This document shows, piece by piece, positions 17,641-35,047 of a DNA stretch of 64,000 nt (position 1 is its first letter; every line of letters begins with the position of its first letter). The notes under the pieces were generated by a model. It was not told the origin of the DNA. It made no database searches and worked only from the letters and a program-made list of their open reading frames with translations. Source of the DNA: a virus (lineage: Duplodnaviria > Caudoviricetes); IMG/VR virus record IMGVR_UViG_3300043174_000028, positions 5,902 to 69,901 of that record; one strand, written 5' to 3'. Made by a program: the position numbers and the translations under genes.

Positions 17641-20600
17641 CTACTTACCTATCGTGAGAGGGTTCAGGACATTGGCCCATTGGTAGGCAGGGAACTGGAA
17701 TATGTCCGGAACCACCCCGAAGAAGGGTACGTTGAGCCTCTCCCCGGTCAGGCCACTGAAGGACATGAAGTTATCCCCAATGTCCGGAATACCCAGGTTG
17801 GTTAGGGACTGGAACAGCGCCATGCCAATGGTGGCTGTGGGCCTGTCGTGCAGGAGCTTGGCGTAGATACGCTGAGTCCTGAGCAGGAACTTGGAAAACA
17901 TGAACAACCCATAGTCATTGGCAGCCTGCAGGTAGGGATGCTGTGGCTCGTCGTAGTAGACGAAGGAATCCAACACATGGTTGAGGGCAGCTTCCCTGGG
18001 TTGCTTCTCCACCTCGGTCATGTGCTTGAACAGGATGAACCGACCCAGGAAGTCGCTGTAGATGTTGATGCCCATGACCCCGTTGAAGAGCTTGGTACCT
18101 GGGCGCATGAGCACTTCCTTGAAGGCGTTCTGACCTCCCGGGGGGATGAAGGACAGGGCTTCCTTGGACAGCATGGCAATGGGCTTCTTCTTCAGGGCTA
18201 CGTCCCTTGGTTCCACCTCGGCCACGATGCTGGTCAGAACACCCTTCTCGATCAGAACATTGACTGGATTGGCTCGCTGTTGCCGCAGCAGGAACTGTAT
18301 GCGGGCTTCCTCATCTTTCGTGATGGTTCTGGACATGGCCTTGGCATTCAGGTGAGCAAGCTCCTTCTCGACCCTGATGTGCTGGCGCATGGCCGAGATG
18401 CCGACCTTTAGGTTCTGCATGATGTAGGAAGGTGGTACGCCATTGGCCAGCAGCAGAGCAATGTTAGAGATGACATTGCCTATTACGACATTCGGTAGCA
18501 GCAGGATGGTGCTTTTGGCCATGGTGGCTACTTCCTGGATCACCAGGTCCGCCATGTAGATGACTGGGTAGGCATTACGGGGAATCTGGAAGGAGAACTT
18601 GCTCTTCCTGTTTTCCACATGCTTGATAACTGAACCAGTCAGGGTCCACTGCCGCTGACCCATGATGTAGCGGAACATCTCCTTGCGAACCCAGATCTCC
18701 TGAGCACCGAAGACCTTCTCGGCCTGTCTCTTGGCATCCTCGGGGAGCATGGCCCACATCTCCCGCATGGCTGCTTGTGGAGCGTCAGGCGCTACACGGA
18801 CAAAGACTCTCTGCTGCTTCCTGGGCTTGGCCAGGTTACGGGTGTAATCCTGGAACAGAACCTTGGTGGTTTCAGCATTGACCAGCTTGGTGTTGATGCG
18901 GTCCTGCACGGAAGCCAGCATCATGCCAATGTTGGTATTGGCCAGGTCTTCCCGCTTCAGCAGGGTGTCCTTGGTTTTCAGGGACATCATGTACCGCATG
19001 TCCACGATGCGTCCGTCCTTGGAGTAGACGGGAACCATCAGGGCTTCCGTGAAGGACGTAGGGTTGAAGAGCACCTGGTTCTGCATCAGAACCTTGCTTT
19101 CGATGTTGTTCAGGTATTCCTGCACGTTCTCCCTGGCTTCGATGTGAGGGTTGCTTCCTGGCTCATAATCGCCACGGGCAATGTCGAGGAAGCTCGTACC
19201 CTTGTGCTGTTCCGAGGTCAAGGAGTAGATGCCCTTGAGCCAGGAACCCATGTTGTACGGAGCCGTGTAGAGCATACGGCTCTTCGTGTTACTGGGGTCG
19301 TTGGGGTCTCGGGGAACCAACGCAGCAGGGAAGTAACCCAGTTCAGCCAGCTTCTTGCGGGTAGCTTCGTCGTTGTTGTCCACCACTACGGACATGTGCT
19401 GATCGAAGTTCTCCCGAGTCCAGCCCTTCATCATGTGGGATGGATTGTTATTGAAGCTTCTTTCCAGAGAATCTTCCACGAATCCACGGTGAAGCTGCAG
19501 CAATGCCACCATGCCATTCTCGTTAGGTCCCCTCTCCAGCTCCTCCATGAAGATCTTGTGGACCCTTTTCTTCTTGACTGGATCCGCCAGTTGGATGGCA
19601 TAAAGGGTGGCTAGCTCGTCAATGACACCCACCAGATCCTTCAGGGCTTCTTCGTCCTGCCTTTCATCCACGGGCAAGTGCTGCAGCTTGGCAATGTTGT
19701 GCGCGTTCATCTGCGGCAGCACATTGCCGTCCACGAACACGCCCCTGGACAGGTAGCTACCCAGTCCCATTGCCTGGTTCACTACGCTGATCCAGGCAGA
19801 AGGGGCATTCTCCTTGATTATGTCCAGACGGGAGTTGATCTCGGAACTCACCAGAATGTCGTTGTCCAGCAGGTCTGCCAGCTTCTCGACAGGTGCCTTG
19901 TCCAGCATGGACTGCATGTCCAGCCGCAGGACTATATCGTTGGTGGCTTTCCACTCGTCGTCATTGAGTTCCCGACCAAAGGACTTCTCGACGAACTCGG
20001 CATATTTGTCAGCCGTCTTCTTGCGGGCTACGTCAATGAGCTGGTGCGACCACCTAAACAGCTTACGGTAGGTGGAGACGGCATGTTGGGACATGCCGGT
20101 GATCTCCTTACCTACGGAATAGATGAATCCATCCTCGCCAACGAACTCTCGCACGCTCTTGCGGAGAATGTCGTTGTGCTGCTTGCGTACCTTGTTGGAA
20201 CGCAGCCTGACTACAATGTTGCCAAGGTTCTTTGGCAGGGACAGAAGGTGAGACTCTTCGCTTCTCTTGGCTTTGATCTCTTCCGGAGTCAGTCCTTCCA
20301 GTTCCTTCTCTCTTTTCTTGGCTTCATCCGAATAGTATTTATCAGCTTTCTTGAACATGTTGTCCACGAAAGCCTTGAACTTCACATCTCCTTGAGCAAT
20401 GGCTTTAGCTGCTCTCTTCTCCACCTGCCTGAACAAAGTTACCCGCTGGGCTTCGTTCACCGTAGCCAGGTCTTGGAACAGCTTGAGCAGAGACTCTCCT
20501 GCGTTCTTGCCCTTTAGCCGGACACGGCTATCCACCATCAGATCCACAGCACGGGAAAGGATGTTGCCCAGCAGCTTGATTGGATTGTTGGACCAGATCT

Positions 20601-23600
20601 TTTTCTTTTCCGGTATAGGCGTGTTCAGCAGGGCAGTCTTCAGTGCTTTGTTAGTCAAGCCAATGGCAGCAAACTCGTGAAGGTTCATGCCTTTTGGATT
20701 GTTGAAGATGTAGTCCCAGCGAGCCTGAGCTTTGTCCATGTCGGACTGGGTACGCTGACCGTCAGGACTGGGATTGAGCAGATCAACGGGTTGGACATTC
20801 TCCCGGGCTACGTTGTAGAGCTTCTCCACTTCCGTCCTGGCCCAGTGGTCGTTCTCCAGCACGAAATAGAACAGGGCATGGACATACTCGTGGACCGCAG
20901 TCTCCTGCAGGGACATTTCTACGGGAGAGGACGCATGGTTGCCTGCAACCTCCAGCAATACTGAATTGTCCTTGGAGTGGAAGGCACCCAGGTTCAGCGT
21001 ACCGGCAAGGTTGAACTGGACTGTCTGGGAGAATCCATCCGTATGCGCCAAGGCAGGGACGATGATGGTCTCCATGATCGAACGCAGATCCTCTGCGTGC
21101 TCTTCGTCTATCGCCACATTTTCGTGCTTAATCAGCTCCTCGAAAATGTTCATAGCATTGGCTGCAGTAACCCGATTTGAGTTCTTGGCCAGGAACTCTT
21201 GCAGCTTTGGCATGGTTCCCGAAGAACCAAGGGTTTCACCAGAACCAGAAGTTTCCGAGCTTGTTTCAGGTGCAGCCTTTGATGTTGTTTGGGTTGCAGC
21301 ATTTGGATTGGCAGTGAAGGCGCTGCCATTCAAGCCAGTAGAAAAGTGAGCAACTTGTCCAATCTCGTTGAACAAATACATCCTGTTAGCCATCACTTCT
21401 AACTGCAATCTGGTGTATCTAAAAGTATCTATTTCTTCCAACAGATCGATGAGTGCATTTGAGAAATCTTTTTCAGGGACATCTTCCAATTTCTCTAAAG
21501 CCTGACGAGCAAACTCATCACCTACTTCTTCCGTGAGAAATCCAGCAACCATGGCTATACGGGCTACCCTGTTACCCGCAGGAAACAGAGTGGTATTGTC
21601 CAGGCTTAGGTACACTCTGAGCTGATCCAGCCTTTTGATGTAACTGTCAATCACAGAGTCAATGAGGCTGTAGCTGCTATTTACCTTGTAGAGCAATTCG
21701 TTGAGCTTCTTGGCTATGCCTTCTACATGGTCAGTTCCATGTAGGAAAGCATCGTAGATTTGCAGCAGTTCCAGTTGAGCAAGGATGGCAGTCATGATGC
21801 TGCCGTCTATCGAGTGCACACCTTTACCCGTACCGCCTACGCCAACACCGCCCTTGTCTCCAGCTCCACCTACTGGTTTCACCCTCACTACTTGTACTTT
21901 ACCCTCCACCCTTTGCATAACGTGGCCTACTTCAGAAGGGTTAAGCACCATTCTGTTGTTAGGAACGCTTACTGAAGCTCTGCCGTTAGGCAAGGGCTCA
22001 CGCAGAGTTACTCGGGTAGTTCGCTGATCTGGCCGGTTAGCCATACCACTCAATAGCAGCTCTTGCATTGGACTATTGGTGGGAGTAGTCGGCGTGGGGA
22101 ATGAAGACAGCAGGCTTTTGCCAAACAGGAAGTCAAAGATTTCCTGTTCTTCTTTGCGAGTAGGCATTACTCCATTTTCATTTTTGAATTGCTCGACAGC
22201 TGCATCAAAGAACTTCTCACCAATTTTGTGCATTCTGTTGGTGAGTTCGGTAATGACGCTCTTGAGTTCCAGAAGTCCACCAAACTTCTTAACAATAGCT
22301 ACTCGCATTCCCAAGCCAATGGTTCTTTCCAGGGATCGCCGCATAACGCTATCCATCGACAGATTCCTATCGACAGTTACGATGTCTTCAGCGAACCAAT
22401 TACGTGCAAACTCAACCAGGGGAGTGTTGGAAACTCCTTCTTCAACTTTGGTTTTAAGAATCTTTTCTGCAGTCAAGTTTTCAAAGATTGCTTTTATTTT
22501 GTCCCGGTCAAACCCAGGCTGTGGAACATACTTGCGAGCAAGTGGTTCACCAGAAATATTTTTAATAACCCCAGTTGCAATAAGAGCGTTGTAGATACGC
22601 TCTGAACTGGGATTAACATCCCAACCAGCTCGGTAGTAACTCTTGATATGGTTGATGACATTCTCAGCAGCATTGTCATCACCTCTTTCTGCTAGAGCCA
22701 TCAGCTTCTCGTACCACATGGTCAAAGCTTTATCGCCCAAATTGCGAGCCAGGGCAGCCAAGCCAGCACCATAGATAGCTTGCATCAGAGGGTCTTTGAA
22801 CAACTCACGGATAGCTTTCAATACTCGTTGAGTTGTTGGATCCAGGATGGCAGGAATCATCCCATCCATTTTGTGAAAGTGGTTAAAGTGATAAATCATT
22901 TCACTAATCATTCTGGCTTTCTTTCTGTCAGATACGTCATCTCCGACAAAGTTATTAAGCTTCGCAGCAACAGCAACTAGAGTTTTCTGATCCGCTTCAT
23001 CTCTATCCTTTTCAGGCTTATCCAGAATCTTGGAAACTGTGCTGATGGAATCTGCAAGATCCTGGGTTACTTCCGTTGAATCTACAGCCAGTGCCTCATA
23101 GTTGTCCGTGTTGCCGGTATCTCGGAAATATTCACCTACGCTGCTATACCACTGGTCCTTGTAGAAGATGCCAGTGCCGTTGAGGATCTTCTTGATGTAT
23201 GCCGCAGTATCTTCTGGGGAAACCCCAGAACTAACCATAGGCATTTGCATGACGCTCAACGCCACCGCATTGGTCAGAGCGTCAGCTTCCGTAGGCAGAA
23301 TGAACTCAAAGTTGGCAGGCAGGCTATTGTCTGCTGCATAGGCAGCTTTGGCTTGCTGGTAATTGGCCCAGGTCTTCAAGCCAATAAGGCTATGCATCTT
23401 CTCCCCAAGCACCTTGGTTACTTTGGCTCGGTCCTCGTCAGTCCAAGGAGCCTTATTGTTCTCATCGAACAAGTGCAGCAGGCTGGCGTACTTGGGCGAG
23501 TACAGCTGTTCCAGGATGTGCTTGGCAAAGTTTGCATCCACCACATTCTTGTCAGCACCGCTCTGCACTGCACTCGGTTGATCCGGGAACAGGGGGGCTT

Positions 23601-26241
23601 TCAAGCCAAGAGCTGTGCTAATGGAAAATATGAACGGCAGGAACTCTGGTTTGGTTTCCAGGTCTGGATCAGTCAGATCCAAGCTGGAAGTCCAGGCAGT
23701 AGTTCCAACAAAGAACCGAATGATCTTGCTGGCTGCCGGGCTAAAGATTCCATCAATCATGTTTCGATTGTTACGCGCCATCATCTGACGCATGTACACC
23801 GTAGGAGATCCCGCAGTTATGTACGCGAACAGGGTCTTCAGATCGGTCAACAAAGTCAGATTGCGACCTTCCTGGGAGAGTTCGTCAGAAAGGTGAACCG
23901 ACCTTGGATCTTTCCAGCCAAACATCACAGCTATCTGCTGCATGTCTCCCATGCGCTTCAGCAGATCAACCATTCCATCAATGGCTCTGTAGGGAACAGT
24001 CTGCGCTTTTTGCTGCCCTTTGATCTGATCTGGAGTCAACTCCTGGGAAGTACCAGAGATCTTTGGATCTACCCTTTTAATGGGCTTGGTGTTGAACAGG
24101 TCCGCTTTGTTTTCAACACCAAATATCAATTCCAAAGTGGTACCGAGAACAGTGAAAGTATCGATGATCTTTTCAATGTTCTTGTGCGGACTCCAGTAGG
24201 AGTCCGTGTCTTCAGCAGTGATGTTGAACTTCTTGTTCCCTGCAGGGTACAAACGAATAAAACTGATTTCAGTATCAGTAACGGTTTCACCGTTCTTGTC
24301 CTGATATTGAGGATTTGCTGAGTTGTAGAGAAAAGGAATATCCGTGTACTCGTCGGAAGTAGGATCTTCCCTTCTGGCAGAAAACCATCTTTGACTGATT
24401 CTTTTTGGAACCAGCTCACCATTAACCACCATGGTTGGTTCTGCAAATATGCGCAGCTTCCAGGCAGTGCCCAGCGTAAGAAGAGCCAACGAGTTAACCA
24501 GATCTTGCTTGAAGTAACCGGACACTCCACCAAATTCATCCAGATTCAACGCTTGCTCGATGGAAGCACTCAGTTCTTTTATGACGGTGCTTCTGAGCAT
24601 CCCCATGTCTTGCAGAACTCGCGTTTCTTCCTCGGTAACGAACGATCTACCCATCAAGCTTTCAATGCTCTCTGAGTCGTTGTACATCAGCTTTCTGCCG
24701 TGCATACCCAGGAACTTGAACAGAGCCAAGGCCATTGCACCAATAACATTGGGCGGTAGCCGACCTGACTCTGCATCTCGCAGGTAGTGGTAAGGAGCTG
24801 TGTTGAGCTGCTGCTGAAGGTTGGCGTAGCTCTTACCTTCCCTTACGTGGATGGGACTGGTAGCTTCCGTTGGATCTCCATCCTGTGCAGGACGAATCTC
24901 CGGCATCACCTTGTCGTAGAGCATCCGTGAGAACTGCTCGGTGAAAACAGAGAACCGTTTCAGAGGTTCCTCGAAAGACACTTCCGTAGTCTTGAACAGA
25001 TCTTCAAGAAACTGTGGAACCCGGAAAGACTGAATGAATGAGGGGAAGAAGGAGAAGAATGTATCGTTCTTAGCCCGGGGGAATACTCCAGTCTCCAGAG
25101 AACCAACCTCAATATTGTCGTTACGGATTACATCCGCAGCTATGTTGGGGTCGTTGATTATCTGGTTCTCTACCATCTGCAGGAACAGAGTCAGGTCATT
25201 GTTGGCAATGAACATCTGCTCTCTGGTATTGGAACCAACATTGGTAAAGAACGTGATGTTCACGTCCAGAGCAGTCTTCTGCAGACTGGTGAGGCTTTGC
25301 AACTGTTCTTCCGGAGTCTGGTCGGAAAGAATCTCAAAGGTTTCCAGAGTACGCTTTTCCAGGATCTCCATTGCTTCCTGGCGCTGCTTCTCCACTTCCT
25401 CCAAGTTGAGATTTTTTGCGTTCTCAGAGTTCTTTATGTCGCTGACAGCCAAAGCTCTCAGCACATCCAACACGGTACCTACAGCCCAAGCTCCACCCTC
25501 AACTTTGAGAAATCCATTACTGCGAACCAAACCAACAAACTTGGCGTAACGGACATAGTGCGGATTGGTTAGGCGGTAATAGCGGTTGTACGCATAGTTC
25601 ATGCGTTCAGACAGGTCTTTCAGTTCAGCCAACTTAACAGGCTCTTTTTTCTCCAGCTTAGTAACCAGGGCTTCTAGCTCCTTCATGCGCCTGTCGGTCA
25701 TGTCACCGGATGCTGCCGACCAAATCCTGATCTCAGGATGCTGCTGCCTGAAGCTCTGCAGTACGTTGAGCTTGTCCCTGAACATCTTGGAATTGTCTTT
25801 AAGCTTGCGCTTAAAGACTTTCTCAACGCTACCACCAATGGCCTTCTTCAAAGCCTCCATAATGCTTTTGACATAGCCATCAATAAACGCTCTGCGATTG
25901 GCAGCGTTTTCATCTTTCTGAGCTTTAAGAGCAGCCTTTCTGCTATTGGCTTTGAAATGCTGCAAAACCTTTTCTGAATCGGACATGTTTCTTGCTTTGT
26001 TTGTGTCCTCTGCTGCTTTTGCAGCATTTGCTTTGTTCTGCTGTTTTTGTTCCAGCAATCCTTTGTAGTACGTATAGAACTTCTTGAAGTTATCTATGTT
26101 GTGCAACAACGAAAGATCTCCAGATGCCTCTGGATCAATTCCACTCTCATACAGCATCTCTTCTAAAGCATCCGGCGAATGCTTCTGCCGAATAGCCTCG
26201 ACCATTTTCTTCAAACTTTCGATGTCACAGCTAGTAGCCAT
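17641..26241 (-). CDS. Virion-encapsidated RNA polymerase (N4 gp50 polymerase and C-terminal domains), 2866 aa
   Basis: T7-family motif A EADALTN, motif B RELFKDPLMQAIYG, motif C VHSID...IYDA; zincin-like HEYVH; a single Cys (residue 5). Confidence 0.9.
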   Translation of the reverse strand: MATSCDIESLKKMVEAIRQKHSPDALEEMLYESGIDPEASGDLSLLHNIDNFKKFYTYYKGLLEQKQQNKANAAKAAEDTNKARNMSDSEKVLQHFKANSRKAALKAQKDENAANRRAFIDGYVKSIMEALKKAIGGSVEKVFKRKLKDNSKMFRDKLNVLQSFRQQHPEIRIWSAASGDMTDRRMKELEALVTKLEKKEPVKLAELKDLSERMNYAYNRYYRLTNPHYVRYAKFVGLVRSNGFLKVEGGAWAVGTVLDVLRALAVSDIKNSENAKNLNLEEVEKQRQEAMEILEKRTLETFEILSDQTPEEQLQSLTSLQKTALDVNITFFTNVGSNTREQMFIANNDLTLFLQMVENQIINDPNIAADVIRNDNIEVGSLETGVFPRAKNDTFFSFFPSFIQSFRVPQFLEDLFKTTEVSFEEPLKRFSVFTEQFSRMLYDKVMPEIRPAQDGDPTEATSPIHVREGKSYANLQQQLNTAPYHYLRDAESGRLPPNVIGAMALALFKFLGMHGRKLMYNDSESIESLMGRSFVTEEETRVLQDMGMLRSTVIKELSASIEQALNLDEFGGVSGYFKQDLVNSLALLTLGTAWKLRIFAEPTMVVNGELVPKRISQRWFSARREDPTSDEYTDIPFLYNSANPQYQDKNGETVTDTEISFIRLYPAGNKKFNITAEDTDSYWSPHKNIEKIIDTFTVLGTTLELIFGVENKADLFNTKPIKRVDPKISGTSQELTPDQIKGQQKAQTVPYRAIDGMVDLLKRMGDMQQIAVMFGWKDPRSVHLSDELSQEGRNLTLLTDLKTLFAYITAGSPTVYMRQMMARNNRNMIDGIFSPAASKIIRFFVGTTAWTSSLDLTDPDLETKPEFLPFIFSISTALGLKAPLFPDQPSAVQSGADKNVVDANFAKHILEQLYSPKYASLLHLFDENNKAPWTDEDRAKVTKVLGEKMHSLIGLKTWANYQQAKAAYAADNSLPANFEFILPTEADALTNAVALSVMQMPMVSSGVSPEDTAAYIKKILNGTGIFYKDQWYSSVGEYFRDTGNTDNYEALAVDSTEVTQDLADSISTVSKILDKPEKDRDEADQKTLVAVAAKLNNFVGDDVSDRKKARMISEMIYHFNHFHKMDGMIPAILDPTTQRVLKAIRELFKDPLMQAIYGAGLAALARNLGDKALTMWYEKLMALAERGDDNAAENVINHIKSYYRAGWDVNPSSERIYNALIATGVIKNISGEPLARKYVPQPGFDRDKIKAIFENLTAEKILKTKVEEGVSNTPLVEFARNWFAEDIVTVDRNLSMDSVMRRSLERTIGLGMRVAIVKKFGGLLELKSVITELTNRMHKIGEKFFDAAVEQFKNENGVMPTRKEEQEIFDFLFGKSLLSSFPTPTTPTNSPMQELLLSGMANRPDQRTTRVTLREPLPNGRASVSVPNNRMVLNPSEVGHVMQRVEGKVQVVRVKPVGGAGDKGGVGVGGTGKGVHSIDGSIMTAILAQLELLQIYDAFLHGTDHVEGIAKKLNELLYKVNSSYSLIDSVIDSYIKRLDQLRVYLSLDNTTLFPAGNRVARIAMVAGFLTEEVGDEFARQALEKLEDVPEKDFSNALIDLLEEIDTFRYTRLQLEVMANRMYLFNEIGQVAHFSTGLNGSAFTANPNAATQTTSKAAPETSSETSGSGETLGSSGTMPKLQEFLAKNSNRVTAANAMNIFEELIKHENVAIDEEHAEDLRSIMETIIVPALAHTDGFSQTVQFNLAGTLNLGAFHSKDNSVLLEVAGNHASSPVEMSLQETAVHEYVHALFYFVLENDHWARTEVEKLYNVARENVQPVDLLNPSPDGQRTQSDMDKAQARWDYIFNNPKGMNLHEFAAIGLTNKALKTALLNTPIPEKKKIWSNNPIKLLGNILSRAVDLMVDSRVRLKGKNAGESLLKLFQDLATVNEAQRVTLFRQVEKRAAKAIAQGDVKFKAFVDNMFKKADKYYSDEAKKREKELEGLTPEEIKAKRSEESHLLSLPKNLGNIVVRLRSNKVRKQHNDILRKSVREFVGEDGFIYSVGKEITGMSQHAVSTYRKLFRWSHQLIDVARKKTADKYAEFVEKSFGRELNDDEWKATNDIVLRLDMQSMLDKAPVEKLADLLDNDILVSSEINSRLDIIKENAPSAWISVVNQAMGLGSYLSRGVFVDGNVLPQMNAHNIAKLQHLPVDERQDEEALKDLVGVIDELATLYAIQLADPVKKKRVHKIFMEELERGPNENGMVALLQLHRGFVEDSLERSFNNNPSHMMKGWTRENFDQHMSVVVDNNDEATRKKLAELGYFPAALVPRDPNDPSNTKSRMLYTAPYNMGSWLKGIYSLTSEQHKGTSFLDIARGDYEPGSNPHIEARENVQEYLNNIESKVLMQNQVLFNPTSFTEALMVPVYSKDGRIVDMRYMMSLKTKDTLLKREDLANTNIGMMLASVQDRINTKLVNAETTKVLFQDYTRNLAKPRKQQRVFVRVAPDAPQAAMREMWAMLPEDAKRQAEKVFGAQEIWVRKEMFRYIMGQRQWTLTGSVIKHVENRKSKFSFQIPRNAYPVIYMADLVIQEVATMAKSTILLLPNVVIGNVISNIALLLANGVPPSYIMQNLKVGISAMRQHIRVEKELAHLNAKAMSRTITKDEEARIQFLLRQQRANPVNVLIEKGVLTSIVAEVEPRDVALKKKPIAMLSKEALSFIPPGGQNAFKEVLMRPGTKLFNGVMGINIYSDFLGRFILFKHMTEVEKQPREAALNHVLDSFVYYDEPQHPYLQAANDYGLFMFSKFLLRTQRIYAKLLHDRPTATIGMALFQSLTNLGIPDIGDNFMSFSGLTGERLNVPFFGVVPDIFQFPAYQWANVLNPLTIGK

Positions 26242-26264
26242 TACGGTAATTCCCTTCTAACGAG

Positions 26265-29200
26265 TTACTGGCACTTGTTCAGGAAATCTTCCATGTCATT
26301 CAAAATATTCTCATTGGCTTCACCAACTACATTGGTTTTACCTTCTTCTTCCAAAGAGTTTGGAGCAGCTTCTTGTCCAGCTTTTGGTGCACCAAACATG
26401 TTCTGGAAAAGGGACTGTAGCTGAGCCCCTGTCATGTTGCTTGGATTAGTAGGTGTAGATGGCTCTGTTTCTGGATTAGGTGTTTGGTTAGGTGTTTGGT
26501 TAGGTGTGGGATTAGGTGTGGAATTAGGTACATTTTGCCCACTAGCTAGCCTTTTAAGAGCTGCAGCAAAATCAGCACCACTAACAACACGATCCCCTTC
26601 TCCAATATCGGGATACTCTTCTTCTTCTTCCTGCTGCTGCTGCTGCTGTGCTTGAGTTGTTGTAGCCGTAGCCGTAGCTGTCGTCGTATCTGTTGCCGTA
26701 GCTGCTTCAGCATTACTTGCAACATCAAGCTCACTCTGCGCTTCGAGGAAAGCGGCAAACCTTTCTGCTGCGTCTTTTTTGGCAAGATTAAATACGGGAA
26801 TACCTTTACGGGAAGCCATGTCAATAGCTTGACCAGTGCCTCCAGTATCTATGGTTCTTTCCGCAGAAGTCTCTACACCATCAGGTGTCCAAGTCAGCAC
26901 GAAATCAACCGGCGAATCTAAATTCTTACCAAAGATCTGATTGGTGCTTCTTGCCATAAGCGCCAATCCATAAGCATTGAGCTTATCAGGCTGTGGATGA
27001 AGCTCTTTGGCTATTTCTTTAGTTTGATCCGTAGCATCTTTTGCAAGGAAGATTTCCTTGTTTTCCACATTTTCGCCAAATGCAGTGTCTACTCCGACCG
27101 CACCTCCAGAACGCAATACATAACCGAGTTTTTCAAGTATCTTTGCGTACTTGGCTACTAATTCCAAAACTGCTTTCGGAGCTTGTCTAGCGCCTATGCC
27201 TGCATAGGTCATGGTTCTAACTGCAGGATTCTTACTAGGCAGCTTGTCAAAGATAGGTGTCTTGCGTGTGCCACTAGCAGCTTTGGGTTTGTTCTGCGCG
27301 ACATACTCTTTCAGGCCAGCAATAAGCTCTTCAAACTTTGCTGGGTCAACCAGGGCTTCACCCAGGATCCGCATGACCCTGAAACCAAAGCTGGAATCCT
27401 TGTCTTCCTCTGCACCAATGACATTCAGAGTCTTGATGTTGTTGGTTTTCAGGAACTCCCTGATTTGGTCAGCAACCACCTTGGCATAGTCCTTATCCGA
27501 CATGCCTTCAGGCTTGACCATATCCAAGAACAAATAGGGCTTGCTGTTCCTGTCTCCTTCCAAATACTGCAGAGCCTTCTTGTTAGCAAAACTCAGATTC
27601 ACGCCTTCACGCTTCCACAGAATAGTGCCATCAGAATTGGCAATGTTCTGCACCAGCGTCTCAAGATCGTTACCGTAGTCCTTTGGCAGAAGACCAAACC
27701 GCCGACCCAGGATTGAGAGCTTGTCTACGATCAGATCCTTTAGAGCAATTCCTCCGGTCAGCAGATTAAACATCTCTGCGATGTACAGAGAACCAGTATC
27801 TCCACCGCTTCTACCTGCAGAAGTGACCTTCTCGACAGAGAGTTCTGGGTTCAAGGGCAGGTTGCCTGGCTTCCTGTCTTTCCCGAGATCTTCCCCTGTA
27901 GGTACACCCTCGTACCGGGCAACCATGAGCATCTTGAAGCTTTCATACAGAGCCTTGGCGTAGAAGTCCAAGTCCTGCTGCATAGTCTCCACGCTGTTCA
28001 GGTCTGCACCCTTTCCAGCTTTCTGGTACTGCAAAGCCAAAAGCAAACCAAAGAAGTTGTTGAGCATTGGGCTCATGTTAGAGACGTACTGGATCCGCAA
28101 GGGAGTAACTACGCTACCTGCGATTGGATCCATGGCAGCCAACTTGGCTGCGAGTTCTTGCCTGTCTTTTTCGGGGAGAGTGTTTCCATATAACTCACCC
28201 GTCAAAGGCACAAAGCTTCCGTCTTTAGCCTGAGAAATAAACTTCACTTCGAGCTTGTTCTTTGCACCCTCTTCCGCAGCAGGCGTGTAGTTGAAGACCC
28301 AATTAAGCTTGACTGCCTCTACCAGATCCAACTTATCCAGAGTCAAACCAAACAGCTTCTTCAGCTTGCCTATCAGCTTGCCAGCTATTCCTCGGACATT
28401 CTTTTCAGCCACTCTGTCTGAACGAAATTCTCCGAACTTCTTAAAGTTCTCCTGGACCGACTTAATGATTTCAACCTGAGTGCTGACCCACTCCTCACTG
28501 GTCTTGTCCAACTGCTCCAGCGCATCACCGTCCAGCTCACGCTTGATGACTTCATAAGCCCTCAAAGCCTGGAACAACTCAGCATTGGCTCTGGCATTTA
28601 CGCTGTCTTTGGTTTTCAGCAGAGCATTTATGTTTACACCTGCTTCTGTGAGTCTCTTGACGACCTCTTCGCCAAGATTCTCTTTCAGGTTTTTAATGAA
28701 CTTGTCTACGTCAGAGATCTCGGAGATCTCAATGCTCGTGCTGTCCTTATTCAAGCCAACAAGCTTGTTGGTCTTTTCCAGGGACGGCTTGACCAAGCCG
28801 ACCTTGAAATCGACATTGCTCAGACTCTTCAGGAAATCCCTGACATTGGACACCACGTAGAGCAGTACGCCGGTACGCTTGGGCTGAGGATTCTTCTTTG
28901 GACCAGTACCGGCCCCGGTACCCGTGCCTGTACCTGTGCCAGTACCCGCACTCTCTGCGCCACCTGAGCCCCCTCTAGGCCCTCTACCGCCTGACCCTGT
29001 ACCTACCCCTTCCCCGGCCTCTCCGCCGCCTCTCTGGCCACCGGAACGCCCAACCAGCCAGTCAGAGAAACGTGTCTGGAGCTTGCTGAAGATCTCCGTG
29101 AACTGGTTGGCAGTTTCAGCATCCAGCTTGCCGATGAAGTCAGCCAGTTGAGCCACCAGCTCTTTGACCCTGGCATGGGTCTCTGCGGTGTAGGGTCCGT

Positions 29201-32200
29201 TGAACAGGGCATTGAGTTCGCCCATGGGACCAGCAAACTCTGGGTTGCTGCTGGCTTCAATGGAGTTCTGCAGTGCCGCTAGGACCGCTGCAGCAGAGGA
29301 GGCTCCCGTTGCAGCAGTGGAAGTTGCTGCTGTGCCAGTAGCAGCAGTGGTGGTAGTGGTGGTGGTACCAGTACCAGTACCAGTACCAGTACCGGCATTA
29401 GTGGAGGTACCTGTAGCGCCCTCTGCACCAGCAGCCGCAGCAGCCGCAGCTTTTTCTTTTGCCTTTTCAGCCTTGTTGGCTTGGTTCCTGTAGATGACAT
29501 CCCTGGAGATTCTCTGGGGAGGGTCAAACCGCAAGAAGTTTTTCTTCTCGCCAGTGACAGGATCCATGTACTCCGTATCGATTAACGGACCTAGACCCTT
29601 GCGTTCTTTGGTTCCTAGAGGAAGCTCACCAGTCCTGGCCAGGTTGTTCCTGATTTGGTACAGGCTGTCATGGATCTTCTGCATGGCAGCTTGTTCTTTG
29701 AGCAGGGTGTTCAGAAAGTTCCTGGCACCCGTAACGGTGGTGGAAGTAACCAGGTCTCTAGTACCTCCCCCCATGCTCTTGTTGTAGGCGGATCTAACCC
29801 GATTCCAGACATCCTTTTCCTGGACCGTAGCTGGATCTTCCTTAGACATTACCTCTTCAAACTGAGCCAGAACTTCCTGTAAGTCTTCAACCTTGTTTTG
29901 CTGGCTATACAGGAAGGTACTGAAGTTGTTCAGCAGACGGTCTACTTCAGTCGTGTTCTTTTTGTTGTTGGCTAGGACACGAAGAATCCTCTCTGCATGA
30001 CCAATGACGGACTGCTTGCCCTGCTTCTCCTGGTAGTTGAGCTTGCCAAACTGACCAAACTTTTCATTAAAGACTTTGGAAGCTTCACCAGTAAGGTTTG
30101 AGATAAGAGCCTGAAACTCTGCGGGCAAGCCAGCAATCATCTCCCTAAATTCAGGAGAGCTGAAGCTATCCAGCACTCCTGCTTCCAGCATGGAGATGAG
30201 TTTCTTAACGGAATTGCTGCTGCTCTTGCCGCTGCCGATGGAAGCCATCAAGGATTCCATGGCTTCATCGCCTGCAAACCTTTCTCCTTCGCTTAGTGGA
30301 GGAGTGTTGTACAGCGTATCGTTAATGTCGTTGATGGTTTGTTTGAGATAGGGGAACAGGAAAGCTTTCCTAAATTCACCTAACTGAACCTTCAGGTCGT
30401 CTAAGACAGCTTTCTGTTGGCCAAGCGAGTTCGTGTCTTCTGCAGTCAGGGTTTCCTTTTTGGATAGTTCTTCAACCTGCCGCTCAAGCTTTTCCTGAGC
30501 TACTCTGCCGGACTCAAGTACGTCGAACACATCTCCGACAGTGACTTTATCCGCAGACTTGCTAGAGACAACTTCCTCCGTGTGAATGTAGGCTTTGAGC
30601 CACTCATTGGCAGAAGCCTCTGGGCTCAAGCCAACGATGCTTCCAGTCTTTGGATCGAACTGAGTGGTTCGAGTAGTCTTGCTGAGAGTCTCCTGCTCAG
30701 AGAGTTTCTGGCTTATGGCTTGCTGGAACTTCTCAGGAGAGAGGCTGGCTATAGGCGCATTGAAATCAATGGGGGATGTATCGGCTTCTGCTTTCTGAGC
30801 AGGAGCAGTTCCACCACCACCACCTGTACCTGAAGGACCAGTGTCATCCTCACTTACAGTTGTGTTGATGAGATTGGACCATCTGTTCTTGAGCCTTTGC
30901 CCAAGACTTTCTCTTCTGTCTGTGGCTTCACCAGATCCAGAAAAGATGCTACGGACTCCGGAAGCAAAAGCCTTAGCAGGCTGGTTAAACACCTGGGTAC
31001 CTGATGCCAAACCAAAGCCAGTTACAGCACCCGTACCTGCTTGCGTACCTACACCCTGGTACCAGGGTGTGTCCTGTCCCAAATTCTCTCGGGCATTGAT
31101 GTTAGAGATAGCCTTGCTACCACCGCTCTCAAGAGCTTCCTGGAAAAACTCTCCCATGCCAGGCTTGAAGAAATTCCCTGCAGCCTGAAAGACTCTTCCC
31201 TTTCCAGATAGCTTTTCCGAGCTTTTTGCTGCCTGCACAGCAATGCCTTTCTCAAGGCTACTGCCACCCAACAGTGTGTTGGCAACAATGGTTATGGGCA
31301 GCATTCCTGCAAAGGCATCGGCATAAGCCTTTTCAGCCACAATGCTTCTAGCTTCTTCCTGAGATACCGACTTAATCAGCTCTCGGTATAGAGAATTTTT
31401 CTTGGCTAGAACTTCAAAGGGCGTATCCAGAACTGCATTGGAAGCCTCATGCGCAGTGGACGCAGCTTCCATGAGCACAGCAGAACCAACAACTGGGGCG
31501 CTTACATAGCCTCGCAGGTACTTGACAACTGCCTTGTCGTTCAAGGGAAGCTTGGCCAGGTCATCAGGCATGTTCTTAATGCCAAGCTTCCTGGCGATAG
31601 AACCTACCTTGACTGAGAGCATCAAGCTGCTGAGAGACTCTGAGGCAGTCTCCATTACCCTGGCTGGATCTTGCAGCGAATCTACAACCGACTTGTAGAA
31701 ATCTTTACTGAGGTTCAAACCAATAGCAGCATCCCTGGAGTAACCCACATCCATCAAGGTTTGGATTCTGTCCTCGGTGCTTGCTTCAGAAATCCTGTCA
31801 CGTAGCGCAGCCATGGCATCCTTGTATTGCCCTATGGAACTGCGCTTGCTCTTCAAATACTTTGCTGTGTCGTCCAGGCCCTTAGTTACTTTACCCAGGC
31901 CCCAATCCCAAAGCTTCTCTACACCCTTGCCGCTATTGATAATGAATTGTTCGATATTTTCTTCTGGGGTATTCAGATACTTCCGGCTGTTTAGAAGCTC
32001 TTCTCTCAACTTGCTCTGCTTAACATCTTCAGCTATGGCCTGCGCACGATCCTTCCTGGCTTTATCCCAGGTTTCAGCAAAGCGGCTTACACCCGTACCA
32101 AAGGCTTCTGAGTAAACATCTTCTTTCCCTTCACGCAGGGATTTCTTGATACTTTGTGTACCACCAAACAAACCGGAACCATAAGCTGTACCGAAATCCT

Positions 32201-33017
32201 CGACATATCCTGAAAGGGCTTCCGCAGTAGTAATTGGATCTTTGACGGTACTAACTAGACCACCAACAACATCTGCCACACCTGCACCAAAATTCTTGGC
32301 TGCATCCTTGGAGTATTCCCAAATACTTCTATCACCTCTGCCTTTAAGGTCTAGTCCGGCTGCTCCGGAAAAGACATCCCGCATTCGCTTTTCAGCATTG
32401 GCATCGTCTGCATAATTGAAGTTGAATTTTGGATCATTAAACGCATCCAGCAAAGACTCCCCATTTGGAGCTGTAATGTCCGCGTAGGCAGCTCCTGTTG
32501 GGCTCAATGAAAAACCTGTATTGCCGGTAGCAGTCAACCGACCCCTGTCGCCCAACCCTCTTACAGCATCATTTACGTTGTTCTGCACATACCTGGCATA
32601 CTCCGCAGCTACGGACGGAGTAACATAATCTTTATCCGGTTCAATATTCTTCGGACCAAACCAGTTGCTAGTAGTCTTACCTAAATTGTTAGCAACGTAG
32701 TTCTGTACTTTCTGCCACTCTCTAGGATTAGTCTGAGCAAGCTGTTCAAAGTACGGAAGATCACCACTAAAAATATTTACCTTGTTTGAACCTAGCTTGA
32801 AGATAGTGCCATCGACATTAAGCTCGTTCTCCTTTTGAGGTATGAACTCAATAGGCTTACCAACGAACTTGTCCTCTTCAATCTGCTTCGCAGCTTTTGG
32901 ATCAAGCCTTCCTCTCTTCTCCTGACCAATGGACTCCAGGAATCTGGATTTAGTTTCAGCCAGAGAAAGGTTTGCATCTGCTGAGGCTTCAGCCCACAGA
33001 TCGTAAGGACTAGCCAT
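26265..33017 (-). CDS. Large ejected protein corresponding to the N-terminal part of N4 vRNAP, with two SLOG-family domains, 2250 aa
   Basis: EFFQEALESGG...GVGTQAGTGAVTGFG resembles the N4 vRNAP N-domain (from recall); SLOG motifs SAGRSGGD/NSDGT/KTLNVIG and YAGIGAR/SGGAVGVD/GGTGQAI; a single Cys (penultimate residue). Confidence 0.8.
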   Translation of the reverse strand: MASPYDLWAEASADANLSLAETKSRFLESIGQEKRGRLDPKAAKQIEEDKFVGKPIEFIPQKENELNVDGTIFKLGSNKVNIFSGDLPYFEQLAQTNPREWQKVQNYVANNLGKTTSNWFGPKNIEPDKDYVTPSVAAEYARYVQNNVNDAVRGLGDRGRLTATGNTGFSLSPTGAAYADITAPNGESLLDAFNDPKFNFNYADDANAEKRMRDVFSGAAGLDLKGRGDRSIWEYSKDAAKNFGAGVADVVGGLVSTVKDPITTAEALSGYVEDFGTAYGSGLFGGTQSIKKSLREGKEDVYSEAFGTGVSRFAETWDKARKDRAQAIAEDVKQSKLREELLNSRKYLNTPEENIEQFIINSGKGVEKLWDWGLGKVTKGLDDTAKYLKSKRSSIGQYKDAMAALRDRISEASTEDRIQTLMDVGYSRDAAIGLNLSKDFYKSVVDSLQDPARVMETASESLSSLMLSVKVGSIARKLGIKNMPDDLAKLPLNDKAVVKYLRGYVSAPVVGSAVLMEAASTAHEASNAVLDTPFEVLAKKNSLYRELIKSVSQEEARSIVAEKAYADAFAGMLPITIVANTLLGGSSLEKGIAVQAAKSSEKLSGKGRVFQAAGNFFKPGMGEFFQEALESGGSKAISNINARENLGQDTPWYQGVGTQAGTGAVTGFGLASGTQVFNQPAKAFASGVRSIFSGSGEATDRRESLGQRLKNRWSNLINTTVSEDDTGPSGTGGGGGTAPAQKAEADTSPIDFNAPIASLSPEKFQQAISQKLSEQETLSKTTRTTQFDPKTGSIVGLSPEASANEWLKAYIHTEEVVSSKSADKVTVGDVFDVLESGRVAQEKLERQVEELSKKETLTAEDTNSLGQQKAVLDDLKVQLGEFRKAFLFPYLKQTINDINDTLYNTPPLSEGERFAGDEAMESLMASIGSGKSSSNSVKKLISMLEAGVLDSFSSPEFREMIAGLPAEFQALISNLTGEASKVFNEKFGQFGKLNYQEKQGKQSVIGHAERILRVLANNKKNTTEVDRLLNNFSTFLYSQQNKVEDLQEVLAQFEEVMSKEDPATVQEKDVWNRVRSAYNKSMGGGTRDLVTSTTVTGARNFLNTLLKEQAAMQKIHDSLYQIRNNLARTGELPLGTKERKGLGPLIDTEYMDPVTGEKKNFLRFDPPQRISRDVIYRNQANKAEKAKEKAAAAAAAGAEGATGTSTNAGTGTGTGTGTTTTTTTAATGTAATSTAATGASSAAAVLAALQNSIEASSNPEFAGPMGELNALFNGPYTAETHARVKELVAQLADFIGKLDAETANQFTEIFSKLQTRFSDWLVGRSGGQRGGGEAGEGVGTGSGGRGPRGGSGGAESAGTGTGTGTGTGAGTGPKKNPQPKRTGVLLYVVSNVRDFLKSLSNVDFKVGLVKPSLEKTNKLVGLNKDSTSIEISEISDVDKFIKNLKENLGEEVVKRLTEAGVNINALLKTKDSVNARANAELFQALRAYEVIKRELDGDALEQLDKTSEEWVSTQVEIIKSVQENFKKFGEFRSDRVAEKNVRGIAGKLIGKLKKLFGLTLDKLDLVEAVKLNWVFNYTPAAEEGAKNKLEVKFISQAKDGSFVPLTGELYGNTLPEKDRQELAAKLAAMDPIAGSVVTPLRIQYVSNMSPMLNNFFGLLLALQYQKAGKGADLNSVETMQQDLDFYAKALYESFKMLMVARYEGVPTGEDLGKDRKPGNLPLNPELSVEKVTSAGRSGGDTGSLYIAEMFNLLTGGIALKDLIVDKLSILGRRFGLLPKDYGNDLETLVQNIANSDGTILWKREGVNLSFANKKALQYLEGDRNSKPYLFLDMVKPEGMSDKDYAKVVADQIREFLKTNNIKTLNVIGAEEDKDSSFGFRVMRILGEALVDPAKFEELIAGLKEYVAQNKPKAASGTRKTPIFDKLPSKNPAVRTMTYAGIGARQAPKAVLELVAKYAKILEKLGYVLRSGGAVGVDTAFGENVENKEIFLAKDATDQTKEIAKELHPQPDKLNAYGLALMARSTNQIFGKNLDSPVDFVLTWTPDGVETSAERTIDTGGTGQAIDMASRKGIPVFNLAKKDAAERFAAFLEAQSELDVASNAEAATATDTTTATATATTTQAQQQQQQEEEEEYPDIGEGDRVVSGADFAAALKRLASGQNVPNSTPNPTPNQTPNQTPNPETEPSTPTNPSNMTGAQLQSLFQNMFGAPKAGQEAAPNSLEEEGKTNVVGEANENILNDMEDFLNKCQ

Positions 33018-33019
33018 GC

Positions 33020-34465
33020 TTATCTCCAAATATCTCTACGCCCCGTCAAAATATCACGATTTCGAGAATCTTTTTCAGTTCGCGCGGTTTCTGCATTGTT
33101 AGCCCGTGTTTTTTCGTCTTTCGCAACTTGTGCTTCAAACTCACTTCTTTTTTCATCTAATTTAAGTAGAAACTTTTGCATCTCTACATATGCGTTATAC
33201 GCTGCCTGCCCACTACCTGTAGGTATAGTGGAAACTAAATCTCCAGTTAGTTGAGCCATCTTCTTTGGATCGTACTCAGCGGAGTGCATCATTCTCGGAA
33301 GGATTTCAAGAATGGCCTCTCCATTGAATCTCTTTTGAGCCAACAGACCGACTGTGTTTTCTACTTCTTTGCGCAGCTTATTTACGTCACTATTTACGTC
33401 ATATAGTGAGTCGTAGAAGTTATCTCCAAATACCTTCTGCAAACCTGTCTGCAGGTGTGGCGAAGTCTGACTGAACAATGCTCTTGTCACACTTTCTACA
33501 GAAGTTTCACCAGGCTTAGATCCAACAAACCAATCATCAGGATTGGGGAGTCGTACTTTCCCATTAGCGCCATATACAACATTGCCGCTTTCAAATACTT
33601 TCATAGCTTCTGATCTTCTTGCTGCGGCGTCTAATGATTTCCCGGCTTCAGCAATTGCTTGAGCACGAGCTAAAGCTTCATTTTGTTGGTTGAAATACAC
33701 ACTCTTACGAAGCATTTCGGGAGGTATCTTGTGCTCATCCGCATACTCTCTAAAGAAATTACCCATTTGAGTATCAGCATAAGCACCAGCTTTAGCTTTA
33801 AGTTCTGCGGGCAAATTCTCTGGCAAAGGTTGGTTAGGATGGGTTGACAACCATTCGTTCATACCTCTTTGGTAGAATCCATCTGCGATATTTTGACGTT
33901 GTGTATTAAAAGCTATGTCGGCTTGCCTGGATGCAGCGTCAGCATCTCTCTCGTCTTTCCCCAAACGCTGAATATTTTCTCGCTGTTCTTTAGTTAAATG
34001 GCCAGTTTCAGTATTGGCATAAGCTTGTGCGTTATGACTTCCAATTTGTGCCTTAGCCAAAGGTTCCACCATCTTGGCTTCTTCTTCTGCCTTATTTGCC
34101 TGAGCCGAACTCAGCTTACCCGAAGTCAAATCTTTGTAAGCACCACCCGTACTCTTCAGTACATTTTCAAAAGTACCTATTCCAGCAGCAGTAGGTATGC
34201 CGCTACCTGCTAGCATGGAGTAGAAGTTTCCCTGTTCTTTGTTGAGCTTCTCGAAATCTCCACCGTAGCTGCCCATGAACGCTGCAACCAGACGGCTAGC
34301 ATCGTTTAGCTCCTGCTCTCTACGACTCTCACCGTAGGCTTTGCTCAGATTGATTAGATCGGTCGAAGCATGAGCCAGACCCGATGCAGCCGTTGCACCA
34401 AAGCCAGTCTCGAACTTGGGACCATCTACGTTCTTCCAGGAGATCGGAGAGCTTTTAGTAGTCAT
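33020..34465 (-). CDS. Internal virion/ejection protein (N4 gp51 position)
   Basis: Synteny, Ala-rich helical composition, no Cys. Confidence 0.65.
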   Translation of the reverse strand: MTTKSSPISWKNVDGPKFETGFGATAASGLAHASTDLINLSKAYGESRREQELNDASRLVAAFMGSYGGDFEKLNKEQGNFYSMLAGSGIPTAAGIGTFENVLKSTGGAYKDLTSGKLSSAQANKAEEEAKMVEPLAKAQIGSHNAQAYANTETGHLTKEQRENIQRLGKDERDADAASRQADIAFNTQRQNIADGFYQRGMNEWLSTHPNQPLPENLPAELKAKAGAYADTQMGNFFREYADEHKIPPEMLRKSVYFNQQNEALARAQAIAEAGKSLDAAARRSEAMKVFESGNVVYGANGKVRLPNPDDWFVGSKPGETSVESVTRALFSQTSPHLQTGLQKVFGDNFYDSLYDVNSDVNKLRKEVENTVGLLAQKRFNGEAILEILPRMMHSAEYDPKKMAQLTGDLVSTIPTGSGQAAYNAYVEMQKFLLKLDEKRSEFEAQVAKDEKTRANNAETARTEKDSRNRDILTGRRDIWR

Positions 34466-35045: not shown

Positions 35046-35047
35046 GT

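What the first reader, a model, noticed from the sequence alone, without database searches (positions are those of the whole stretch)
26200..26300. Split virion RNA polymerase whose only two cysteines face each other across the break: possible head-to-tail disulfide chain
Seen: the 2250-aa upstream protein has one Cys, in its penultimate residue (...FLNKCQ*). The 2866-aa polymerase has one Cys, at residue 5 (MATSC...). The genes are 23 nt apart, out of frame, and the second has its own RBS-like AGAAGGGA. The two neighbouring ejection proteins (33020-35045) have no Cys. Known: N4 vRNAP is one roughly 3500-aa chain with no cysteine, and it is ejected through the cell envelope. Inference: about 5100 residues are kept Cys-free except at the junction, so the halves may be joined by a disulfide for packaging or sequential ejection and released in the reducing cytoplasm.
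Basis: partly seen in the sequence, partly recalled or inferred. Interest (0 to 1): 0.85.

Follow-up and report, generated by a model that had tools for sequence, protein, structure and literature searches.

The report
Cysteine clasp joining split virion polymerase
This N4-like phage makes its giant injected RNA polymerase as two proteins whose only cysteines sit at the two ends that face each other; the same rule holds at every genuine break I found in distant relatives, and a published phage structure shows such a pair as a real disulfide, so the pieces are probably tied head to tail into one thread for injection.

Summary
The 2250-aa upstream protein has one Cys, at its penultimate residue. 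The 2866-aa polymerase has one Cys, at residue 5. The genes are 23 nt apart, with an RBS. Both match the N4 virion RNA polymerase family, as N-terminal domain and as RNAP plus C-terminal domain.

In 15 adjacent junctions between vRNAP pieces, including the window, both facing ends carry a Cys. These come from relatives only 17-27% identical, one of them the cultured Alteromonas phage AD45-P1.
- The upstream Cys lies 0-5 residues from the C-terminus. The downstream Cys is at residue 3-6.
- End pieces have one Cys. In the 3-piece and 4-piece chains, middle pieces have exactly two, one at each end.
- Twelve complete unsplit relatives and N4 gp50 have none.
- A break caused by a 1-nt indel (L020) has no Cys.

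In cyanopodophage A4, gp27 and gp26 carry the same signature (..NPCQF* | MSKHC). Cryo-EM shows them disulfide-bonded in the virion (PMC12002296). I found no sequence homology between them and this pair.

The bond here, and its release in the cytoplasm, are inferred and untested. This scan has already found the same rule on other genomes. I found no paper describing it for vRNAPs.

The parts
26265..33017 (-). Upstream piece (P0084, 2250 aa). It is the N4 gp50 N-terminal-domain homologue plus SLOG/DprA-like cargo domains and low-complexity linkers. Its single Cys is penultimate (..FLNKCQ*).
   Evidence: phrog_2206 profile positions 47-982 match residues 292-1322 (E 4e-30); phrog_768 and Pfam cpYpsA also hit. 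Cys count.
26271..26273 (-). TGC codon of the only Cys in the upstream piece, one residue before the stop.
26242..26264 (-). 23-nt intergenic spacer with the AGAAGGGA ribosome-binding site, which ends 9 nt before the ATG.
26227..26229 (-). TGT codon of the only Cys in the polymerase piece (residue 5). This column is invariant in the 6-sequence alignment A3.
17641..26241 (-). Downstream piece (P0001, 2866 aa). It has a poorly conserved all-alpha N-terminal region (about residues 1-470), a T7-like RNAP domain, and the C-terminal domain.
   Evidence: phrog_2206 E 9e-256, with residues 1681-2824 matching profile positions 2252-3373. phmmer against N4 gp50 aligns residues 1775-2827 to N4 2447-3470.
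21292..24834 (-). RNAP catalytic domain (about residues 470-1650). Invariant columns are D987 (ExDGxTNG, motif A-like), R1145/K1149/Y1157/G1158 (motif B-like) and D1479/D1497 (IHSxDG...HDA, motif C region).
   Evidence: Invariant columns in A2 and A3. The assignment to T7 motifs is from my own knowledge of T7 RNAP.
17770..21201 (-). vRNAP C-terminal domain, with an invariant HExxH (residues 1784-1788, nt 20878-20892).
26736..27827 (-). SLOG / DprA-like domain region carried on the upstream (ejected) piece.
   Evidence: Pfam PF12694 matches residues 1735-1890; phrog_768 matches residues 1939-2098. Stand-alone phage DprA-like homologues appear.
33020..34465 (-). gp51-position ejection protein (481 aa, no Cys).
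   Evidence: Operon position; Cys count. No family hit.
34476..35051 (-). gp52-position small ejection protein (191 aa, no Cys).
   Evidence: phrog_18869 and phrog_2646; Cys count

Best explanation
The phage encodes the N4-type virion RNA polymerase as two proteins. One is an N-terminal 'ejection/anchor' piece that also carries SLOG cargo domains. The other is an RNAP plus C-terminal-domain piece. Both are kept free of cysteine, like all vRNAPs, except for one Cys at the C-terminal tip of the first and one at the N-terminal tip of the second. In the mature, oxidised virion these two most likely form an intermolecular disulfide. The two chains then behave topologically like the single beads-on-a-string chain of N4 gp50. 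The N-terminal piece leaves first through the tail and the gp51/gp52 conduit, and the tethered polymerase follows. A tip-to-tip link keeps the assembly linear, so it can still thread a channel about 35 A wide. Shown here: the signature, its strict conservation and its covariation with breaks. Shown in print: that the same signature is a disulfide in phage A4 virions. Inferred: that the bond forms in this phage, that it forms after assembly or lysis on top of a non-covalent docking of the termini, that it serves ordered ejection, and that it may be reduced in the cytoplasm.
For: (1) Both ORFs belong to the vRNAP family. Each has a single Cys, at the facing tip. (2) Same break in relatives 17-27% identical: L003 ..ETIC*|MATSC, L004 ..QECK*|MNAC, L005 ..LDCK*|MPNC, L006 ..GRCK*|MTINC. 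Where the upstream protein is complete (1681 and 1885 aa) it has one Cys in total. C5 is an invariant alignment column. (3) A different break, RNAP|CTD: L033 ..LKDC*|MAC, L034 ..GGIC*|MIC, L040 ..IKDC*|MSC, L043 ..YRCLGAKL*|MKSC, and cultured Alteromonas phage AD45-P1 ..KHCKQ*|MTIC. (4) The 3-piece L053 and 4-piece L055 chains: middle pieces have exactly two Cys, one at each tip, and end pieces have one, at the junction-facing tip. In L055 an inserted Dda-like helicase piece carries both. (5) Twelve of 12 complete unsplit relatives (3370-4926 aa) have 0 Cys, as do 38 of the 48 vRNAP homologues in the first protein search and N4 gp50. (6) Specificity: among selected complete ORFs in the loci, 28 of 53 of at least 800 aa have terminal-only Cys, against 3 of 344 smaller ones. 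(7) Artefact control: L020's break has no Cys. L020 differs by a single 1-nt gap from the 99.2% identical L021, where the ORF is continuous. (8) Precedent: A4 gp27 (1717 aa, sole Cys 1715) and gp26 (1114 aa, sole Cys 5) are disulfide-bonded in the virion cryo-EM structure, with gp27's C-terminal helix lying in a cleft of gp26 (PMC12002296). (9) The AD45 split was checked by PCR, and both polypeptides were seen on gels (PMC3821669). (10) The N4 model has the N-terminal domain leading and anchoring the RNAP-CTD through a flexible linker (PMC13434306). The breaks fall in the regions of N4's two linkers, judged approximately from profile coordinates.
Against: There is no biochemical or structural datum for this phage or for any split vRNAP. 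The AD45 gels show two separate bands, and the excerpt I read does not state the gel conditions; separate bands are expected if the gels were reducing, but they do not show a link. Heads are filled in a reducing cytoplasm, so the bond cannot be what recruits the upstream piece. A non-covalent docking must exist, and none was detected. A4 gp26 and gp27 show no sequence homology to this pair, so the precedent is by analogy. One clade of polymerases with an N-terminal Cys (L007, L069, L002, P0064) has no adjacent partner. Only candidate partners further upstream were seen: L002, a 1160-aa protein with its sole Cys 11 residues from the end; and L069, an ORF ending ..KECG*.
Confidence: 0.72

Rival explanations
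1. The tip cysteines are a selected junction feature, but the link is not a disulfide. The two thiols might share a metal ion (Zn, Fe or Cu) with neighbouring side chains, or might only stabilise a non-covalent helix-in-cleft docking.
For: The pairing and covariation require only that the two tips meet. Acidic residues often precede the C-terminal Cys (..KDC..QEC..LDC).
Against: Two thiols alone make a poor metal site, and no conserved His, Asp or Cys neighbours are seen in the alignments. The only solved example of the signature is a disulfide.
Confidence: 0.1
2. The cysteines drive a covalent re-ligation, such as protein trans-splicing or a thioester-type ligation, that restores one polypeptide.
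For: A Cys next to each break is reminiscent of intein and extein junction nucleophiles. This genome reportedly holds an intein and other split genes (first-reader notes seen, not checked by me).
Against: Only 0-5 residues lie beyond the C-terminal Cys and 2-5 before the N-terminal Cys, so there is no room for intein blocks. Pfam and PHROGs report no intein domain. The AD45 work saw two separate polypeptides of 270 and 175 kDa on gels. The A4 structure shows two chains joined by S-S.
Confidence: 0.04
3. Each tip Cys pairs with its own kind (upstream piece with upstream piece, polymerase with polymerase) or with a third virion protein, rather than across the break.
For: N4 packs about 4 vRNAP copies per virion (cited in PMC13434306), so homotypic contacts are possible. 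The clade without an adjacent partner (L007, L069) shows that an N-terminal Cys can occur without a neighbouring C-terminal Cys gene.
Against: In 15 of 15 adjacent junctions both sides carry the Cys. The outer ends of the chains never do. The A4 bond is heterotypic.
Confidence: 0.08
4. Coincidence, or relaxed constraint at disordered termini. Cys is tolerated only at the tips, with no function.
For: Termini are often unconstrained. A few unsplit vRNAPs carry one stray Cys.
Against: Stray Cys in unsplit proteins are mostly internal. Outer termini never carry them. The Cys is invariant where the flanking sequence is unalignable. The number of Cys tracks the number of breaks exactly: 0, 2, 4, 6.
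Confidence: 0.01

Closest known systems
Cyanopodophage A4 (Anabaena phage A-4L) ejection proteins gp27-gp26, disulfide Cys1715-Cys5 (PNAS 2025, PMC12002296)
   Same: Two adjacent genes for large packaged ejection proteins. Each protein has a single Cys: the upstream one three residues from its C-terminus (..NPCQF*), the downstream one at residue 5 (MSKHC). The bond is seen in the virion by cryo-EM.
   Different: No detectable sequence homology to this pair. A4 has a 41.7-kb genome and I saw no vRNAP among its annotations. The paper reports the bond as a structural detail, not as a rule for split cargo.
Coliphage N4 gp50 and other Schitoviridae vRNAPs (e.g. Pseudomonas phage DEV gp71)
   Same: Homologous N-terminal, RNAP and C-terminal domains. 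Same operon order after the gp53-, gp52- and gp51-position genes. Strict avoidance of Cys (PMC11445570).
   Different: N4 and DEV have one chain of about 3400-3500 aa with flexible linkers and no Cys at all. Here there are two chains totalling 5116 aa, extra SLOG cargo, and a Cys pair where the chain is broken.
Alteromonas phage vB_AmaP_AD45-P1 split vRNAP (ORF127/ORF126; PMC3821669)
   Same: A cultured phage with a PCR-verified split vRNAP. Both polypeptides were seen on gels. I find the same signature in its record (..KHCKQ* | MTIC).
   Different: The break lies between RNAP and CTD rather than between NTD and RNAP. The authors read the cysteines as a sign that the protein is not injected. 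GenBank labels the region 'potential frameshift'.
Split inteins (e.g. cyanobacterial DnaE)
   Same: A gene split in two, with a Cys next to each break.
   Different: No intein blocks and only a few residues beyond the cysteines. The products stay as separate chains in AD45 and A4.

Membership tests
N4-type virion RNA polymerase (Schitoviridae gp50, phrog_2206) | Sequence homology across the N-terminal domain, RNAP domain and C-terminal domain | tested here: met
   P0001 E 9e-256 (profile 2252-3373 plus a second stretch). P0002 E 4e-30 (profile 47-982). The CTD aligns to N4 gp50 residues 2447-3470.
N4-type virion RNA polymerase (Schitoviridae gp50, phrog_2206) | T7-like single-subunit RNAP catalytic motifs A, B and C intact | tested here: met
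   Invariant D987, R1145/K1149/Y1157/G1158 and D1497 in 13- and 6-sequence alignments. Motif naming is from memory of T7 RNAP.
N4-type virion RNA polymerase (Schitoviridae gp50, phrog_2206) | Single polypeptide of about 3500 aa | tested here: not met
   Two ORFs, 23 nt apart and out of frame, with an RBS between them. The same split is conserved in L003-L006.
N4-type virion RNA polymerase (Schitoviridae gp50, phrog_2206) | Suppression of cysteine | tested here: met
   2 Cys in 5116 residues, against roughly 1% in the phage's other ORFs. Both exceptions are at the junction.
N4-type virion RNA polymerase (Schitoviridae gp50, phrog_2206) | Packaged in the virion and ejected into the host | not testable with these tools
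   Inferred from homology and operon position only.
Disulfide-clasped ejection proteins (A4 gp27-gp26 type) | Sole Cys at the C-terminal tip of the upstream protein and at about residue 5 of the downstream protein, with adjacent genes | tested here: met
   A4 checked
Disulfide-clasped ejection proteins (A4 gp27-gp26 type) | Physical S-S bond in the virion | not testable with these tools
   Shown only for A4.
Disulfide-clasped ejection proteins (A4 gp27-gp26 type) | Sequence homology to A4 gp26 or gp27 | tested here: not met
   hhalign probability 0.3%; best BLASTP E 0.003 over 59 residues.
Split intein | Intein N- and C-fragments (about 100 plus 35 aa, blocks A/B and F/G) flanking the break | tested here: not met
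   One residue follows the upstream Cys and four precede the downstream Cys. No intein family hit.

The most novel reading that the evidence does not exclude
Tip-cysteine clasps may be a general, modular coupling system of podophage ejected cargo. Any break in a giant injected protein, or any inserted extra module (the SLOG enzymes here, the helicase in L055), would be daisy-chained head to tail by a reducible S-S bond. The cargo would then thread the tail in a fixed order as one linear string and come apart in the reducing cytoplasm. This would also explain why these proteins are otherwise kept strictly Cys-free.
Probability: 0.45. Interest if true: 0.88.

Novelty: new variant of a known kind. 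Interest (0 to 1): 0.8.

Why it matters
How a protein of 3500 or more residues is threaded through a 35-A tail, and in what order, is an open question for N4-like phages (PMC13434306). A conserved tip-to-tip covalent clasp would show three things. Chain continuity itself is under selection. The N-to-C order of domains matters for ejection. Phages can add or split cargo modules without losing that continuity. It also reinterprets published observations: the AD45 conclusion that the protein is 'not injected', GenBank's 'potential frameshift' label, and perhaps the DEV survey's dismissal of Cys near truncated ends as sequence errors. It gives a simple sequence rule for telling real splits of ejection proteins from assembly frameshifts. 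It is directly testable in a cultured phage.

Tried and rejected
1. Complex prediction on residues 1-520 of P0001 against the last 90 residues of the upstream piece gave no verdict (score 0.31, mark 0.32). I do not count it either way.
2. AlphaFold2 of residues 1-520 of P0001 with 5 rows gave mean pLDDT 51 and an all-alpha model. That is too poor for a fold search against A4 gp26, so none was run.
3. Searches with the N-terminal 500-600 aa found nothing: GenBank phages, IMG/VR and the word-indexed protein search.
4. The word-indexed search with the upstream piece found only the window's own protein.
5. blastn of the junction against phages found nothing.
7. The genome search on the relatives' records: those records are not held.
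9. P0079 and P0064 contigs: one is not on record and one has no DNA.
10. Considered and rejected:
   - A nucleotide-level cause, such as a coupling signal. The codons are TGC or TGT at variable distances, with overlapping or spaced genes.
   - Lipobox or CaaX-type modification. The position is wrong and there is no signal peptide.
   - An assembly frameshift. The split is conserved across relatives about 25% identical.
11. 'Split-size' polymerases without Cys (P0059, P0060) have no adjacent large upstream gene. They are not counter-examples, but they are not explained either.
Full report
**Observation**

The window is 64 kb of a 69.9-kb IMG/VR virus record that CheckV estimates as 94% complete. 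On the minus strand, ORF 26265-33029 encodes the upstream protein. The called protein starts at the ATG at 33017 and is 2250 aa (P0084). ORF 17641-26241 encodes a 2866-aa protein.

- Each protein has exactly one cysteine: the penultimate residue of the first (..FLNKCQ*) and residue 5 of the second (MATSC).
- The genes are 23 nt apart and out of frame. AGAAGGGA ends 9 nt before the ATG.
- The two small ORFs upstream (33020-34465 and 34476-35051) have no Cys. The phage's other ORFs average roughly 1% Cys.
- N4 gp50 (3500 aa), gp51 and gp52 have none.

**What the genes are**

- PHROGs places both proteins in the virion RNA polymerase family phrog_2206. The upstream protein matches profile positions 47-982, the N-terminal domain. 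The downstream protein matches positions 2252-3373 plus a second stretch (E 9e-256).
- The downstream protein keeps invariant columns that I read, from my knowledge of T7 RNAP, as motif A (D987), motif B (R1145, K1149, Y1157, G1158) and motif C (D1497). Its C-terminal domain aligns to N4 gp50 residues 2447-3470.
- The upstream protein also carries SLOG/DprA-like domains (Pfam cpYpsA, phrog_768) between low-complexity linkers.
- Gene order matches the N4 ejection operon, in the gp53, gp52, gp51, gp50 positions.
- In relatives, the upstream piece carries SLT and Peptidase_M15_3 cell-wall hydrolase domains. This fits an ejected protein.

The phage has no close relative. Nothing in GenBank phages or IMG/VR matches the junction region. 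The best vRNAP homologues are 21-28% identical.

**The family background**

Of the 48 homologues found with the conserved part of the polymerase, 38 have no Cys in 3000-4900 residues. This agrees with a published count of 0.00075% Cys in gp71 homologues against 0.865% proteome-wide (PMC11445570).

An exhaustive HMMER search with residues 1-1200 of the polymerase found 34 relatives. Among those 2087-2776 aa long, in which the match to query residues 400-1190 lies near the relative's own N-terminal end, P0053, P0055, P0057, P0058, P0061, P0062 and P0064 have one Cys in the whole protein, at residue 4-7. Shorter fragments show the same tip Cys (P0069, P0075, and P0054, which also has five internal Cys). 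The unsplit relatives have none, apart from two internal Cys in P0073 and one at residue 7 in P0005, whose called start is uncertain.

I fetched the contigs that encode these relatives. Where the upstream gene is visible, it ends in a Cys:

| Locus | Upstream end | Downstream start |
|---|---|---|
| L003 | ..ETIC* | MATSC |
| L004 | ..QECK* | MNAC |
| L005 | ..LDCK* | MPNC |
| L006 | ..GRCK* | MTINC |

The complete upstream proteins (1681 and 1885 aa) have that Cys and no other. These proteins are 17-27% identical to the window's. The polymerase N-terminal 470 residues are barely alignable, yet C5 is an invariant column.

**Other breaks**

A metagenome scan gave 80 loci.

- Twelve complete unsplit vRNAPs (3370-4926 aa) have no Cys.
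- Five lineages are broken between RNAP and CTD instead. Each has the pair:

| Locus | Upstream end | Downstream start |
|---|---|---|
| L033 | ..LKDC* | MAC |
| L034 | ..GGIC* | MIC |
| L040 (also L037, L046) | ..IKDC* | MSC |
| L043 | ..YRCLGAKL* | MKSC |
| Alteromonas phage AD45-P1 (cultured) | ..KHCKQ* | MTIC |

- L053 is a three-piece chain: ..IRNCK* | MINC....VICQG* | MSC.
- L055 is a four-piece chain. An RNAP piece (phrog_2206 positions 1080-1993) and an inserted Dda-like helicase piece each have exactly two Cys, one at each tip. The end pieces have one, at the tip that faces the chain.

The number of Cys therefore tracks the number of breaks: 0, 2, 4, 6. Counting the window, 15 of 15 adjacent junctions carry the pair, and no outer terminus does. 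Among selected complete ORFs in all loci, 28 of 53 proteins of at least 800 aa have terminal-only Cys, against 3 of 344 smaller ones.

**Controls and exceptions**

- L020 has a break with no Cys. It differs by a single 1-nt gap from the 99.2% identical L021, where the ORF is continuous. So an artefactual or very recent break lacks the signature.
- Two Cys-free 'short' polymerases (P0059, P0060) have no adjacent large upstream gene and are not demonstrable splits.
- One clade (L002, L007, L069, P0064) has the N-terminal Cys but tail genes immediately upstream. Candidate partners lie further upstream. In L002 it is a 1160-aa protein whose only Cys is 11 residues from the end, and the polymerase start is better placed at MSQSC behind GGGAG. 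In L069 it is an ORF ending ..KECG*. This clade remains unexplained.

**Precedent**

[quoted passage not shown] In the genome record, gp27 (1717 aa) has only Cys1715 (..NPCQF*) and gp26 (1114 aa) has only Cys5 (MSKHC). This is the same signature as the window. I found no sequence homology between the A4 pair and this pair, so the support is by analogy.

The AD45 paper verified its split by PCR and saw both polypeptides on gels. It took the cysteines to mean the protein is not injected (PMC3821669). GenBank labels the region 'potential frameshift'. I found no paper proposing junction disulfides for vRNAPs. This scan had already reached the same reading on other genomes, both N4-like and crAss-like.

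**Mechanism**

In the current N4 model, the N-terminal domain associates with gp51, leaves first and anchors in the inner membrane. The RNAP and CTD follow as beads on a string, joined by flexible linkers at residues 907-1006 and 2102-2123 (PMC13434306). The breaks seen here fall in the regions of those linkers, judged approximately from profile coordinates.

A tip-to-tip disulfide restores a linear, threadable chain. I therefore hold the following, at about 0.72:
- The pair forms a disulfide in the virion.
- It most likely forms after assembly or lysis, on top of a non-covalent docking.
- It serves ordered ejection.

Reduction in the cytoplasm is plausible but untested.

Rivals:
- A metal or non-covalent clasp (0.10).
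- Homotypic pairing or pairing with a third partner (0.08).
- Covalent re-ligation (0.04).
- Chance (0.01).

**What failed**

The complex prediction gave no verdict. The AlphaFold model of the N-terminal region was too poor to search with. Raw reads could not be consulted.

**Verdict**

Relative to print, it is a new variant of a known kind: disulfide-linked ejection proteins and Cys-free vRNAPs are both known, but their combination as a rule for split vRNAPs is not described.

Noticed in passing
window 26736-27827 (-): The ejected N-terminal piece carries SLOG/DprA-like domains (Pfam cpYpsA, phrog_768), which normally occur as stand-alone phage proteins. L005's partner has cpYpsA too, while L004's has only SLT and M15. 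An injected nucleotide-binding or nucleotide-processing enzyme could be an early counter-defence cargo.
   Followed up: partly
window 20878-20892 (-), residues 1784-1788 of the polymerase piece: An HExxH motif (..AVHEYVHA..) is invariant in the C-terminal domain across the 6-sequence alignment. It may correspond to the putative zinc-binding motif noted for DEV gp71-C.
   Followed up: no
window 52110-59348 (-): A second giant protein (2412 aa, weak tail-fibre and virion-protein PHROG hits) is also nearly Cys-free. It has one Cys, at residue 2362, which is not at a tip.
   Followed up: no
L055:5879-8584 (+): A 901-aa Dda/PIF1-like helicase with a Cys at each tip sits between the RNAP and CTD pieces of a 4-piece chain. 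An unsplit relative (P0046, 4316 aa) has helicase domains fused in-frame. The same module therefore exists both fused and clasped.
   Followed up: partly
L088 (KF005317.1) 10624-22348 (-): GenBank annotates the AD45-P1 vRNAP region only as 'potential frameshift', with no CDS. The two ORFs (2495 and 1409 aa) are intact and carry the tip-Cys signature.
   Followed up: yes
L002:9980-17629 (+): The gene caller's start for P0027 is probably 7 codons too late. The upstream ATG behind GGGAG gives MSQSC, which restores the N-terminal Cys that the called protein lacks.
   Followed up: partly
L020 against L021: Two contigs 99.2% identical differ by a single 1-nt gap that breaks the CTD ORF in L020. This is an example of an assembly or recent frameshift that mimics a split, but without cysteines.
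   Followed up: yes
window 2603-5719, 38900-41560, 62001-63029: First-reader notes on this genome report a DNA polymerase in several blocks, a capsid gene with introns and a terminase intein. The genome seems unusually fragmented by mobile elements, which may bear on how the vRNAP split arose.
   Followed up: no
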